A DNA stretch of 64,000 nucleotides from Escherichia coli (GTDB lineage Bacteria > Pseudomonadota > Gammaproteobacteria > Enterobacterales > Enterobacteriaceae), in the NCBI RefSeq assembly GCF_017348835.2, contig NZ_CP071375.1. One strand, written 5' to 3'. The position numbers were made by a program. This document shows, piece by piece, positions 45,701 through 48,700 of this stretch; position 1 is the first letter of the stretch; every line of letters begins with the position of its first letter.

Positions 45701-48700
45701 TGGTCCGGATAATTCAGATGATCTCCTGTTCAAAAAGCTATTCTCCCCTTCGAAATTAATGACAATTATCGGTGATGAAATTCCTCTTATATCTGAAAAA
45801 CAGTCGCTTTCGAAGGTGCTTTTAAATGATGAGAATAATGAACTGAGCGATGGTACAAACTTCTGGGATAAAAATCGTCAATTAACCACAGATGAAATAG
45901 ATTGCTATCTTCAGAAGATCGCCGCTAATGCAAAAAATACTGAAGTCAATTATCCTACTGGTCTCTACGTCCCCTACTCCACCAGAACTCACCTGGAAGA
46001 CGCTCTCAATGAAAATATTAAGAGCGATCCATCATGGCCGAATGAAGTCCAGTTATTCCCCATAAATACTGGCGGACACTGGATATTAGTTTCGCTACAG
46101 AAAATAGTAAATGAAAAAAATAATACACAACAAATAAAATGCGTCATATTCAACTCATTGCGCGCACTAGGCCATGATAAAGAAAATTCACTTAAGCGTG
46201 TCATTAATAGTTTTAATTCTGAACTCATGGGAGAAATGTCGAATAATAATATAAAAGTTCATTTAACTGAACCCGAGATAATATTTTTACATGCCGTTCT
46301 TCAGCAATACTTAAGCCAAAGTTGCGATGCATTTGTGTGCATGGCAGCCCAGGAAGTGATTGAACAAAGGGAAAGTAATTCTGACAGCGCCCCCTATACG
46401 TTATTAAAAAACTATGCTGACAGATTTAAAAAATATTCAGCAGAAGAGCAGTACGAAATTGATTTTCAACATCGACTGGTAAACAGAAATTGTTATTTAG
46501 ATAAATATGGCGATGCAAATATCAATGATTATTATAGAGACTTAGAAATAAAACACTCACAACCCCAAAATAGAGCATCAGGCAAAAGAGTAAGTTAACA
46601 TCATTGTTAATTAATTCGACCAGTCAGCAAATATGCTGACTGGTCGAACATAGTTTGCTAAAAAGTCATCACTGACTGATGTCAGTCACACCACCCTGCA
46701 GTTCAATCTTCGGGTATTTCCAGCGTATCTCGGCACGCGATTGCTGGTCTGTTGATGTAGTGGATTGTAGTTGCTGACTTTTCTTACCCTCAGATTTCTG
46801 CCCCACTTGTCAATTCAATCTGCCAATAAATAACATAATTATATTTTTATTCCTCACAGAAATTCCTTTTTAAAAATAGCGAACCCACTGTAAAAAACAC
46901 TTTTTGTATATCTCTACCAAGTGTAATAAAATAAACGCTCATAATTCATTATAAATAATAATGAAATAACGCCTTTTATTGATAATTTACATATGAAAAA
47001 ATTTTCCTTTTGTTATATTATTTCTGTTTTCACTCCCTCTGATTATTTTTACCAACCCTGGGTCACTGCATTATCGCCAACGCCCCGACACGTAATTCCT
47101 GAGCAATTAGAAAAAACAGTTCGTTATCTTACACAAGCTGTGCATCCACGTAATGCCGACAATATTGATAATCTGAATAGGTCCGTAGAGTATATAAAAG
47201 AGGTCTTTGTCAGTAGCGGTGCCAGAGTTACCGCGCAGGGCGTCCCCGATTGGCTATTACGACTCTGCGCCTGGTAGCCAGGATTACCCTTACCCGCAAT
47301 GTCCTGGCTTTATCCCGATCGGGGGGACTTTATTGCCTGGTCGGCAGAATACAGGATATCAACGCCGTTCGTCAGGTAAAAGCGGCATTGTTGTCATCCC
47401 GGGATTTATCTGTTTATTCTATGAATGCCCCAGGGTTTATTCCCGGTATTGATTTCTCTGACCACCTGAATTATTGGCAACACGATATTCCCGCCGTAAT
47501 GATTACTGACACCGCTTTTTATCGTAATAAACAATACCACTTGCCCGGTGATACCGCAGACAGATTGAATTATCAGAAAATGGCTCAGGTGGTGGATGGT
47601 GTTATAAATTTGTTATACAACAGTAAATAATAAAAATTTCTCGAGGCGGGTCCAGAAAAAGCGACATGCACATTTTATTTTCCCTCGTCTGTTTTAAGAT
47701 GCGAAACATGAAATTCAATGGAGGAAAAATAAATGGGAATGATTGGTTATTTTGCAGAAATTGACTCAGAAAAGATTAACCAACTGCTTGAGTCTACTGA
47801 AAAACCTTTGATGGATAATATACATGACACGCTTTCAGGATTACGCCGACTGGATATTGATAAACGCTGGGATTTTTTACACTTTGGGCTGACAGGCACC
47901 TCTGCTTTTGATCCCGCGAAGAATGATCCGCTGAGTCGTGCCGTGCTTGGTGAACACAGCCTCGAAGATGGCATAGATGGCTTCCTGGGATTGACCTGGA
48001 ATCAGGAGTTAGCCGCGACAATCGACCGACTGGAATCACTGGATCGAAGTGAGCTGCGTAAACAGTTTTCCATTAAGCGACTCAATGAAATGGAGATTTA
48101 TCCGGGAGTGACCTTTTCAGAAGAGTTAGAGGGGCAACTCTTTGCCTCGATCATGCTTGATATGGAAAAGCTGATTAGCGCGTATCGACGTATGCTGCGA
48201 CAAGGGAATCATGCGCTGACGGTTATTGTTGGGTGATGGTGTCAGAGCGCCAAAAAAAACCGCCGAGCATGTCGGCGGCTTTCTGACTTACAAACTAACA
48301 GATTACATCAGCGGCATTGCCAAACGCACAATGCTAATCAGCGGTTGTGGCCATACACCCAGCACCAGTACCAACAGTGCAGAAATCAGCACCACGATAC
48401 CGCCCGCGCTGTACTGCCAGTTTGACGGTGCATCGCGACCCGGTTGTTCCGGTGCGTGCAGGTACAGACTCACCGCCACGCGCAGGTAGTAGTAAAGGCC
48501 GATTGCCGAACCGACAACCACGGCACCCACCAGCCACCACAAGTGAGCCTGGACACCGACCGCCAGCACGTAGAACTTACCGATAAAGCCCAGCGTCATC
48601 GGGATACCGGCCAGAGACAGCATCATCACCGTCATCACTGCCGCGAGGATCGGACGATGCCAGAACAGACCGCGGTAAGAGAACAGGGAATCAGCATCCG

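What the first reader, a model, noticed from the sequence alone, without database searches (positions are those of the whole stretch)
46599..47732. Remodelled elaD-yfbM interval: disrupted yfbL-like peptidase, no yfbK, strong palindrome
Between elaD and yfbM I expected a large VWA-domain gene (yfbK) and an intact M28 peptidase gene (yfbL). Instead there is about 390 bp of non-coding sequence, containing a perfect 14-bp inverted repeat, and a peptidase gene broken across three reading frames and about 330 bp too short. yfbM is followed directly by the nuoN terminator, so the yfbN/O/P genes I recall from K-12 are also absent. The elaD to yfbM block is low-GC, consistent with an old horizontally acquired islet undergoing decay.
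Basis: partly seen in the sequence, partly recalled or inferred. Interest (0 to 1): 0.4.

Follow-up and report, generated by a model that had tools for sequence, protein, structure and literature searches.

The report
Common decayed yfbK–yfbL locus in E. coli
This stretch of an E. coli chromosome holds the dead remains of two genes, yfbK and the peptidase gene yfbL; about 4 in 10 sequenced E. coli strains, including O157:H7, carry the same inherited lesions, so it is real but ordinary.

Summary
Compared with K-12, the elaD–yfbM interval lacks yfbK, carries a broken yfbL and has no yfbNOP. A perfect palindrome (15-bp arms, not 14) sits 17 nt after the elaD stop.

The lesions are not an error and not peculiar to this strain:
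- The "non-coding" 394 bp is mostly a yfbK relic: codons 1–43, a 21-nt internal islet and the last 12 codons.
- The yfbL remnant has five deletions (−5, −1, −326, −1, −1 nt). The 326-nt one removes five of the six M28 active-site residues.
- The exact yfbK junction is in 2363 of 5426 complete E. coli genomes and the exact yfbL Δ326 junction in 2034, O157:H7 among them. NCBI's annotation pipeline (PGAP) already marks the remnant "frameshifted".

Other Escherichia species and an E. coli B2/ST131 strain have rbn–yfbK–yfbL–yfbM–nuoN without elaD. So yfbK, yfbL and yfbM are ancestral at this site. The 35%-GC elaD cassette, which includes the palindrome, is the insertion. yfbNOP is absent from 83% of genomes.

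Verdict: a stepwise-decayed, widely inherited pseudogene haplotype. Already known, low interest.

One lead remains. A 2025 preprint reports that deleting yfbL makes K-12 resistant to phage N4, so the loss could be adaptive.

The parts
45378..46598 (+). elaD, an intact 406-aa ORF (CE-clan deubiquitinase). It is the core of the low-GC cassette inserted between rbn and yfbK. In this strain it carries D307V and G317D, the second next to the catalytic Cys.
   Evidence: Pfam matches ElaD_SseL-like_N and Peptidase_C48. 94% identical to K-12 ElaD. No elaD homologue found in loci L008-L013 or annotated in L015. Variant residues. Catalytic C313 from PMC1847702.
46615..46648 (.). Perfect palindrome with 15-bp arms and a 4-nt loop, 17 nt downstream of the elaD stop. 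It is part of the elaD cassette and is identical in K-12. Most likely a 3'-end hairpin between the once-convergent elaD and yfbK; there is no U-tract.
   Evidence: z = -8.6; unique in the window; identical in K-12; not called as a canonical terminator; absent from outgroup loci.
46671..46686 (-). Small hairpin followed by a T-run, overlapping the last codons of the yfbK relic. It looks like a terminator for the former yfbK transcript.
46669..46707 (-). yfbK relic, C-terminal piece: the last 12 codons plus the stop, matching K-12 L003 5996-6035.
   Evidence: blastn, tblastn match IELQGGVTDISQ.
46708..46729 (-). yfbK relic, internal islet, matching K-12 L003 6248-6269 (YfbK aa ~485-492, IRWKYP). 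It shows that the loss consisted of two in-frame gaps of 213 and 1323 nt.
   Evidence: Local alignment with 19 of 21 matches; MAFFT gaps.
46730..46857 (-). yfbK relic, N-terminal piece (codons 1-43). The start codon has changed from ATG to GTG, there is an in-frame stop inside the former lipoprotein signal peptide, and identity to K-12 is only about 77%.
46858..46992 (.). Former divergent yfbK-yfbL intergenic (promoter) region. It is AT-rich and about 68% identical to the K-12 allele.
46993..47630 (+). yfbL pseudogene (M28 metallopeptidase relic), 638 nt against 972 nt. Lesions: -5 after 47002, -1 after 47045, -326 between 47247 and 47248 (aa 88-196), -1 after 47295 and -1 after 47337.
   Evidence: PGAP marks it 'frameshifted' in L001, L002, L005, L007 and L014.
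47733..48236 (+). yfbM (DUF1877), intact at 167 aa, with its own Shine-Dalgarno sequence GGAGG at 47720-47724.
   Evidence: 99% identical to K-12 YfbM; Pfam DUF1877 at 1.7e-35.
48257..48281 (-). GC-rich hairpin CCGCCGA-GCATG-TCGGCGG (48259-48277), flanked by an A8 run on the + strand that reads as U8 after the stem on the nuoN strand. This is the nuoN intrinsic terminator, abutting yfbM where K-12 has the 2561-bp yfbNOP segment.

Best explanation
The interval is a vertically inherited, stepwise-decayed haplotype of the E. coli rbn–nuoN locus. It has no function of its own.

Inferred order of events:
(i) The ancestral Escherichia arrangement was rbn–yfbK(−)–yfbL(+)–yfbM(+)–nuoN(−).
(ii) A low-GC elaD cassette replaced the ~140-bp rbn–yfbK spacer and the last few codons of yfbK. 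The cassette carried its own flanking hairpins, including the 15-bp palindrome.
(iii) In one lineage yfbK lost 213 + 1323 nt, ending in its Q-rich, CTG-repeat linker region.
(iv) A 326-nt deletion then removed YfbL residues 88–196, which hold five of the six M28 active-site residues.
(v) Small indels accumulated afterwards in different sub-lineages.

yfbM keeps its own ribosome-binding site and stays intact. The palindrome is most likely an RNA 3'-end hairpin for elaD (a terminator or stabiliser). The window itself matches pig strain PE164.

Shown directly: the lesions, their junctions, their population frequencies and the outgroup arrangements. Inferred: the order of events, neutrality of the decay and the role of the hairpin.
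For: - Lesions and junctions: blastn, tblastn and MAFFT against K-12 and an intact-yfbL short haplotype.
- Nested sharing of lesions: the yfbK junctions are identical in the window, L001, L002, L005, L007 and also L004, which has an intact 975-nt yfbL. Δ326 is shared by all of these except L004. The two later −1 deletions are missing in L002. L007 has a private 7-nt deletion.
- Population counts in 5426 complete genomes: yfbK junction 2363; Δ326 junction 2034; yfbK internal segment 2513; yfbL mid-segment 3297; yfbNOP 946.
- Outgroups and B2 strains lack elaD but have yfbK, yfbL and yfbM.
- The deleted yfbL segment aligns to the metal-ligand motifs of solved M28 aminopeptidases: HxDS, GADDNASG, EE and (D/E)M. 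Only Pfam M28 profile positions 142–191 of 193 survive.
- The relic ORF on the minus strand is interrupted by different stops in different strains.
- Sequence is identical in two independent complete assemblies, and PGAP gives a 'frameshifted' pseudogene annotation.
Against: - Neutrality is assumed, not tested. A preprint reports that yfbL deletion gives phage N4 resistance, so the loss could have been selected.
- The yfbK-5'/intergenic part is only ~70% identical to K-12 while the flanks are 96–98%. The short haplotype may therefore descend from a deeply diverged or imported allele rather than from a K-12-like one.
- The hairpin lacks a U-tract, so a terminator role is not established.
- No formal phylogeny was built, so single origins are inferred only from identical junctions.
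Confidence: 0.92

Rival explanations
1. Loss of yfbL, and perhaps of yfbK, was positively selected rather than neutral. For example, inactivating yfbL may protect against N4-like phages, or may remove an exposed envelope protein.
For: - Keio ΔyfbL and ΔyfbO mutants resist phage N4 and are restored by complementation (bioRxiv 10.1101/2025.09.29.679331).
- Decay recurs independently. E. whittamii has yfbL reduced to aa 1-51 and 288-323. 'E. coli' SCPM-O-B-8794 has yfbK reduced to aa 525-572. Strain 14EC020 lacks yfbK entirely, and CUPF12 has an IS1 in yfbK.
- The Δ326 allele is at 37% frequency.
Against: - Within E. coli essentially one yfbL-inactivating event (a single junction) accounts for the losses. 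That fits descent within phylogroups as well as it fits selection.
- Genomes that keep the mid-segment are annotated as having intact yfbL.
- The phage result is from a preprint, in K-12, with one phage.
- No dN/dS or homoplasy test was run here.
Confidence: 0.15
2. The frameshifts are sequencing or assembly errors, and the strain really has a full-length peptidase gene.
For: Two of the lesions are single-base deletions, a common error type.
Against: - The 2.1-kb region is 100% identical in two independent complete genomes.
- The Δ326 junction occurs in 2034 genomes.
- The −1 deletions are shared with L005 and L007.
- Correcting every 1-nt indel would still leave the 326-nt catalytic-core deletion.
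Confidence: 0.01
3. The short arrangement is ancestral, and K-12's yfbK and full-length yfbL are later insertions.
For: About half of E. coli genomes lack yfbK. The block has lower GC than the genome.
Against: - The window retains three collinear, same-frame pieces of yfbK and both halves of yfbL.
- E. albertii, E. whittamii, Escherichia sp. MOD1-EC7003, B2 strain MNCRE44 and Superficieibacter have full-length yfbK at this site, and Escherichia sp. E1V33 shows its C-terminal 321 residues at the locus edge. yfbL is intact in E. albertii, MOD1-EC7003, MNCRE44 and Superficieibacter; E. whittamii has its own decayed yfbL.
Confidence: 0.02
4. The palindrome is a protein-binding or recombination site, for example a footprint of the element that delivered elaD, rather than an RNA hairpin.
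For: It is a perfect 15-bp inverted repeat lying about 40 bp inside the right edge of the elaD cassette. It has no U-tract.
Against: - It is unique in the window.
- No matching repeat was seen at the left edge of the cassette, and no mobility gene is present.
- Its position, 17 nt after a stop codon between convergent genes, is typical of 3'-end hairpins.
- There is no Rfam match either way.
Confidence: 0.08
5. The remnants are re-used. The 126-aa ORF (47250-47630, the M28 C-terminal fragment) or the 45-aa relic ORF (46669-46806, minus strand) would encode new functional small proteins.
For: Both are open in this strain. PGAP calls the 45-aa ORF 'hypothetical protein' in F2_81. The 126-aa ORF marginally passes the Pfam M28 cut-off, 22.6 against 21.3 bits.
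Against: - The 45-aa ORF is broken by an extra stop in L002 and L004.
- The 126-aa ORF starts at a TTG with no evident ribosome-binding site, depends on lineage-specific frameshifts absent from L002, and lacks five of the six active-site residues.
Confidence: 0.03

Closest known systems
E. coli K-12 MG1655 locus b2268–b2276 (rbn–elaD–yfbK–yfbL–yfbM–yfbN–yfbO–yfbP–nuoN)
   Same: Same chromosomal site and gene order. elaD, the palindrome, the 3' part of yfbL, yfbM and nuoN are 96–99% identical.
   Different: The window lacks 1536 nt of yfbK, 334 nt of yfbL and the 2561-nt yfbNOP segment. The yfbK-5'/intergenic stretch is only ~70% identical.
The RefSeq-annotated 'frameshifted' pseudogene at the same site in E. 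coli O157:H7 (ECpv15279_RS30740) and in strains 7784, 13P460A, 2017.17.01CC and F2_81
   Same: Same yfbK junctions and the same Δ326. F2_81, 7784 and 13P460A also share the two −1 deletions, whereas 2017.17.01CC (L002) lacks them (the O157:H7 locus was not aligned). Same neighbours: elaD upstream, yfbM then nuoN downstream.
   Different: The window allele is a rare sub-variant. The whole region is 100% identical only in PE164 and F2_81 and 94–98% identical to the others. The 5' indel pattern also differs.
Arrangement rbn–yfbK–yfbL–yfbM–nuoN in B2/ST131 E. coli (MNCRE44), E. albertii and Escherichia sp. MOD1-EC7003
   Same: Same flanking core genes and orientation. This represents the probable ancestral state of the site.
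   Different: These genomes have no elaD cassette and keep yfbK and yfbL intact.
Peptidase family M28 (e.g. Vibrio/Aeromonas proteolyticus leucyl aminopeptidase, PDB 1AMP/3B3T)
   Same: Intact YfbL aligns to the family's metal-binding core and contains the HxDS, GADDNASG and EE motifs.
   Different: The window's remnant has lost that core and keeps only the C-terminal ~100 residues, in a shifted frame. It is a relic, not a member enzyme.

Membership tests
Peptidase M28 (functional yfbL orthologue) | A single uninterrupted ORF covering the whole M28 domain (Pfam PF04389, YfbL aa 95–317). | tested here: not met
   Homology is spread over three frames. Only profile positions 142–191 of 193 match, at 22.6 bits, against 90.6 bits for K-12 YfbL.
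Peptidase M28 (functional yfbL orthologue) | A complete co-catalytic zinc site. From the YfbL alignment to 1AMP-type enzymes, the residues are H113, D133, E164/E165, E194 and H296. | tested here: not met
   The Δ326 deletion removes aa 88–196, and with them every listed residue except H296. The ligand roles come from established knowledge of M28 enzymes; the alignment is.
YfbK (vWF_A + VWA + YfbK_C lipoprotein) | Presence of the VWA and YfbK_C domains. | tested here: not met
   Only codons 1–43, ~485–492 and 564–575 survive, and the relic ORF has no Pfam hit.
Unitary pseudogene / gene relic | Collinear homology to an intact gene, with disabling lesions that recur in independent assemblies. | tested here: met
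   PGAP 'frameshifted' flags.
Horizontally acquired genomic islet (as proposed for elaD→yfbM) | Absent from sister species and basal lineages at an otherwise syntenic site. | tested here: inconclusive
   Met for elaD, for which no homologue was found in L008–L013 and none is annotated in L015. Not met for yfbK, yfbL and yfbM, which are present there. The proposed block is therefore not a single islet.
Horizontally acquired genomic islet (as proposed for elaD→yfbM) | Atypical base composition. | tested here: met
   GC is 35–46% against 51.4% for the window. The lowest values are in elaD and in the relic/intergenic part.
Horizontally acquired genomic islet (as proposed for elaD→yfbM) | Mobility hallmarks: integrase or transposase, a tRNA target, flanking direct repeats. 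| tested here: not met
   No such ORFs between rbn and nuoN. Junction sequences show replacement of ~140 bp with no evident duplication. tRNAs were not scanned.
Rho-independent (intrinsic) terminator, for the 46615–46648 palindrome | A stable GC-containing hairpin immediately followed by a U-tract. | tested here: inconclusive
   The hairpin is strong (81-nt stretch 46590–46670 folds at −32.4 kcal/mol, z −8.6). No T-run follows on either strand, and the scan does not call it. The same scan also missed the canonical nuoN terminator.

The most novel reading that the evidence does not exclude
The widespread yfbL Δ326 allele and the recurrent independent erosion of yfbK and yfbL in several Escherichia lineages may be adaptive gene loss rather than neutral decay. 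The driver would be N4-like phages, or another agent that exploits these envelope proteins. This would tie a natural 37%-frequency polymorphism to the laboratory finding that yfbL deletion confers N4 resistance.
Probability: 0.12. Interest if true: 0.45.

Novelty: already known. Interest (0 to 1): 0.1.

Why it matters
The finding has little importance in itself. It is a routine pseudogene and deletion polymorphism that NCBI's annotation pipeline already flags in O157:H7 and in every other short-haplotype locus examined.

It has modest value in three ways:
- It corrects the K-12-centred expectation for this site. Only 17% of complete genomes have yfbNOP, 46% have yfbK and 61% have the full yfbL core.
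- It shows that elaD, not yfbK/yfbL/yfbM, is the acquired element.
- It offers natural yfbL-null and yfbL-intact haplotypes on otherwise similar backgrounds. These could be used to test the reported link between yfbL and phage N4 susceptibility.

Tried and rejected
- Sequencing error: rejected. The sequence is identical in two independent assemblies and the junctions are shared by thousands of genomes.
- Short form as ancestral: rejected, on the relics and the outgroups.
- yfbNOP as a simple K-12-specific insertion: softened. It is present in only 946 genomes, nearly all ≥99% identical. But yfbN/yfbP homologues sit at the same site in Superficieibacter (49–62% aa identity) and in Escherichia sp. 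MOD1-EC7003 (yfbN 93.5%). Polarity is therefore unresolved.
- Known RNA family in the interval: nothing above noise in Rfam.
- Palindrome as a repeated element: it is unique in the window.
- The 45-aa relic ORF as a conserved small gene: rejected, because L002 and L004 carry extra stops.
- Microhomology at the Δ326 breakpoints: none convincing. CCCC|ATT… and …ATG|ATT give CCCC-GATT.
- Consensus terminator scan: it did not call either the palindrome or the evident nuoN terminator, because stem extension consumes the T-run. It was not decisive.
- Literature search for yfbK/yfbL: nothing on this polymorphism. An LldR gSELEX peak lies in the K-12 elaD–yfbK–yfbL region. The ElaD papers give elaD's distribution and catalytic Cys but say nothing about its neighbours.
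- The single genome-contig scan, run with one protein as query, returned only 6 loci, so outgroup sampling is thin.
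Full report
**What the window is.** ORF listing and translation identify elaA, rbn (elaC), elaD (45378–46598, +), yfbM (47733–48236, +) and nuoN (48303–49760, −). This is the E. coli rbn–nuoN region. Megablast of 46300–48400 against 5426 complete E. coli genomes hits 5423 of them. It is 100% identical only in the pig strains PE164 and F2_81, and the next best match is 98%. A 60-mer in elaD that carries two rare substitutions is identical only in PE164. The window is therefore from PE164 or a very close relative.

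**Checking the observation against K-12 (L003).** blastn gives five collinear blocks:

| Window | K-12 locus L003 | Identity | Content |
|---|---|---|---|
| 45001–46708 | 4337–6035 | 96.5% | elaD, the palindrome and the last 40 nt of yfbK |
| 46708–46729 | 6248–6269 | 19 of 21 | internal yfbK islet |
| 46731–47247 | 7594–8121 | 80.5% | first 130 nt of yfbK, intergenic region, yfbL codons 1–87 |
| 47248–48237 | 8448–9439 | 98.3% | rest of yfbL, yfbM |
| 48255–48700 | 12001–12446 | 97.8% | nuoN terminator and nuoN |

- yfbK has lost 213 + 1323 nt, and both gaps are in frame.
- yfbL has lost 326 nt.
- The 2561-nt yfbNOP segment is absent.
- tblastn with YfbL places aa 1–87, 197–209, 210–226 and 222–323 in three frames.
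- MAFFT against intact alleles resolves five lesions: −5 after 47002, −1 after 47045, −326 at 47247/47248, −1 after 47295 and −1 after 47337. That gives 638 nt against 972 nt.
- The palindrome is at 46615–46648, with 15-bp perfect arms and a 4-nt loop. It is unique in the window, and the 81-nt stretch containing it folds at −32.4 kcal/mol, z −8.6.
- GC is 35% in elaD and the interval and 44–46% in the yfbL relic and yfbM, against 51.4% for the window.

The arms are 15 bp rather than 14. About 190 bp of the "non-coding" stretch is a yfbK relic.

**Is the peptidase dead?** K-12 YfbL matches Pfam Peptidase_M28 over aa 95–317 at 90.6 bits. The best window fragment matches only profile positions 142–191 of 193, at 22.6 bits. 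Alignment of YfbL to solved M28 aminopeptidases (2EK8, 3B3T, 1AMP) places the conserved motifs HYDS, GADDNASG, SEE and LEM in aa 113–195, all inside the deleted aa 88–196. Only the C-terminal YHxPxDT histidine survives (the ligand roles come from established knowledge of M28 enzymes). No single-base correction can restore the gene.

**Not an artefact, and not rare.**
- The 60-nt Δ326 junction is present at full length in 2034 of 5426 genomes.
- The 76-nt yfbK double-deletion junction is present in 2363.
- The yfbK internal segment is present in 2513 genomes.
- The yfbL mid-segment is present in 3297.
- yfbNOP is present in only 946.
- PGAP annotates the remnant as a "frameshifted" pseudogene in F2_81, 2017.17.01CC, 7784, 13P460A and O157:H7 PV15-279.

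**Order of events.** Strain NA3664 (L004) has the identical yfbK junctions but an intact 975-nt yfbL. The yfbK loss therefore came before Δ326. About 330 genomes (2363 − 2034) are expected to be of this intermediate type. L002 has Δ326 but lacks the two downstream −1 deletions, so those came later. L005 and L007 differ in the 5' indels, and L007 has a private 7-nt deletion. The minus-strand 45-aa ORF stitched from the yfbK pieces is annotated "hypothetical protein" in F2_81, but it carries extra stops in L002 and L004 and is not conserved. This is the nested pattern expected of progressive pseudogene decay.

**Polarity and the "islet" idea.** One scan of species-representative genomes with YfbK returned six loci. 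tblastn with the K-12 proteins gave these arrangements:

| Locus | Organism | Arrangement |
|---|---|---|
| L009 | E. albertii | rbn–yfbK–yfbL–yfbM |
| L012 | Escherichia sp. MOD1-EC7003 | rbn–yfbK–yfbL–yfbM–yfbN |
| L011 | Escherichia sp. E1V33 | rbn–yfbK… (locus ends) |
| L008 | E. whittamii | rbn–yfbK–(yfbL relic, aa 1–51 and 288–323)–yfbM–nuoN |
| L013 | divergent "E. coli" SCPM-O-B-8794 | rbn–(yfbK relic, aa 525–572)–yfbL–yfbM–nuoN |
| L010 | Superficieibacter electus | rbn–yfbK–yfbL–yfbP–yfbN…nuoN |

None of these loci has elaD. B2/ST131 strain MNCRE44 likewise has rbn–yfbK–yfbL–yfbM–nuoN. That agrees with published reports that elaD is missing from ExPEC and B2 strains (PMC1847702, PMC12575377).

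Junction alignment shows that K-12 positions 4530–6012 replace about 140 bp of unrelated spacer in the outgroups. That segment holds the rbn-proximal hairpin, elaD, the palindrome and the last ~6 codons of yfbK. So elaD with its palindrome is the acquired cassette. yfbK and yfbL are ancestral at this site in Escherichia and Superficieibacter, and yfbM in Escherichia.

The polarity of yfbNOP is unresolved. It is rare and nearly invariant in E. coli, but homologues sit at the same site in two other taxa.

**Other features.**
- The yfbK-5'/intergenic stretch of the short haplotype is about 70% identical to K-12 and 78–81% to L013, while K-12 is 94% identical to MOD1-EC7003 there. The two E. coli haplotype families are therefore deeply diverged in this stretch.
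- The L013 yfbK deletion ends within ~15 nt of the window's, inside the Q-rich, CTG-repeat linker. This suggests a deletion-prone spot.
- The yfbM–nuoN spacer holds a GC hairpin followed by U8 on the nuoN strand, a canonical terminator. The consensus scan missed it, so that scan's failure to call the palindrome carries little weight.
- Rfam finds nothing in the interval.

**Mechanism.** The interval has no function of its own; it is relic DNA.
- The palindrome most likely forms a 3'-end hairpin for elaD mRNA and, formerly, for the convergent yfbK transcript. This is inferred from its position and stability. It is identical in K-12 and has no U-tract.
- yfbM keeps its own GGAGG ribosome-binding site and an intact ORF.
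- Whether the losses were neutral or selected is open. A 2025 preprint reports that Keio ΔyfbL and ΔyfbO mutants are resistant to phage N4 and that complementation restores sensitivity. That gives a testable adaptive-loss hypothesis, to which I assign about 0.12–0.15.

**Verdict.** The feature is already annotated in public genomes. Novelty: already known. Interest: about 0.1.

Noticed in passing
window 46296-46298 and 46326-46328 (elaD codons 307 and 317): ElaD here carries D307V and G317D (K-12 numbering D304 and G314). G314 directly follows the catalytic Cys313 in the conserved 'CG' of CE-clan proteases. The 60-mer with both changes is identical in only 1 of 5426 genomes (PE164); F2_81 has only the G-to-D change. 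elaD may be catalytically impaired in this lineage.
   Followed up: partly
L008 4713-4941 (Escherichia whittamii): Independent decay of yfbL in another species. Only aa 1-51 and 288-323 remain, while the neighbouring yfbK is intact.
   Followed up: partly
L013 10001-10144 ('E. coli' SCPM-O-B-8794, a divergent lineage): Independent yfbK deletion leaving aa 525-572, in a genome with no elaD. Its 5'-side breakpoint falls within ~15 nt of the window's, in the Q-rich CTG-repeat linker, which suggests a deletion hotspot.
   Followed up: partly
L006 3398-3566 (E. coli 14EC020): A further haplotype. elaD is truncated to a 111-nt pseudogene, yfbK is entirely gone, and yfbL is intact.
   Followed up: no
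L010 6215-7857 (Superficieibacter electus); L012 3-374 (Escherichia sp. MOD1-EC7003): yfbN and yfbP homologues lie between yfbL/yfbM and nuoN in other taxa. In E. coli, by contrast, yfbNOP is found in only 17% of genomes and is ≥99% identical. The segment may be an old, patchily retained or recombined part of the locus rather than a K-12-specific insertion.
   Followed up: partly
window 46731-46992 vs L003 7594-7860: The yfbK-5'/intergenic stretch is only ~70% identical between the short haplotype family and K-12, although the flanks are 96-99% identical. K-12's version is 94% identical to that of Escherichia sp. MOD1-EC7003. This points to deep allelic dimorphism or past import by recombination.
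   Followed up: partly
H31 (CUPF12) and H81 (MB51), E. coli chromosomes: IS1 is inserted in yfbK in strain CUPF12, and IS903B is inserted in the yfbNOP segment in MB51. These are further independent disruptions of the same locus.
   Followed up: no
K-12 yfbL/yfbO (literature, bioRxiv 10.1101/2025.09.29.679331): The preprint reports that deleting yfbL or yfbO makes K-12 BW25113 resistant to phage N4, and that complementation restores sensitivity. Both genes are naturally missing or dead in this window.
   Followed up: no
window 48257-48281: The consensus terminator scan fails to call the obvious nuoN terminator (GC hairpin followed by U8). Its stem extension pairs the flanking A and T runs and uses up the T-tract. 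Negative results from that scan should be read with caution.
   Followed up: yes
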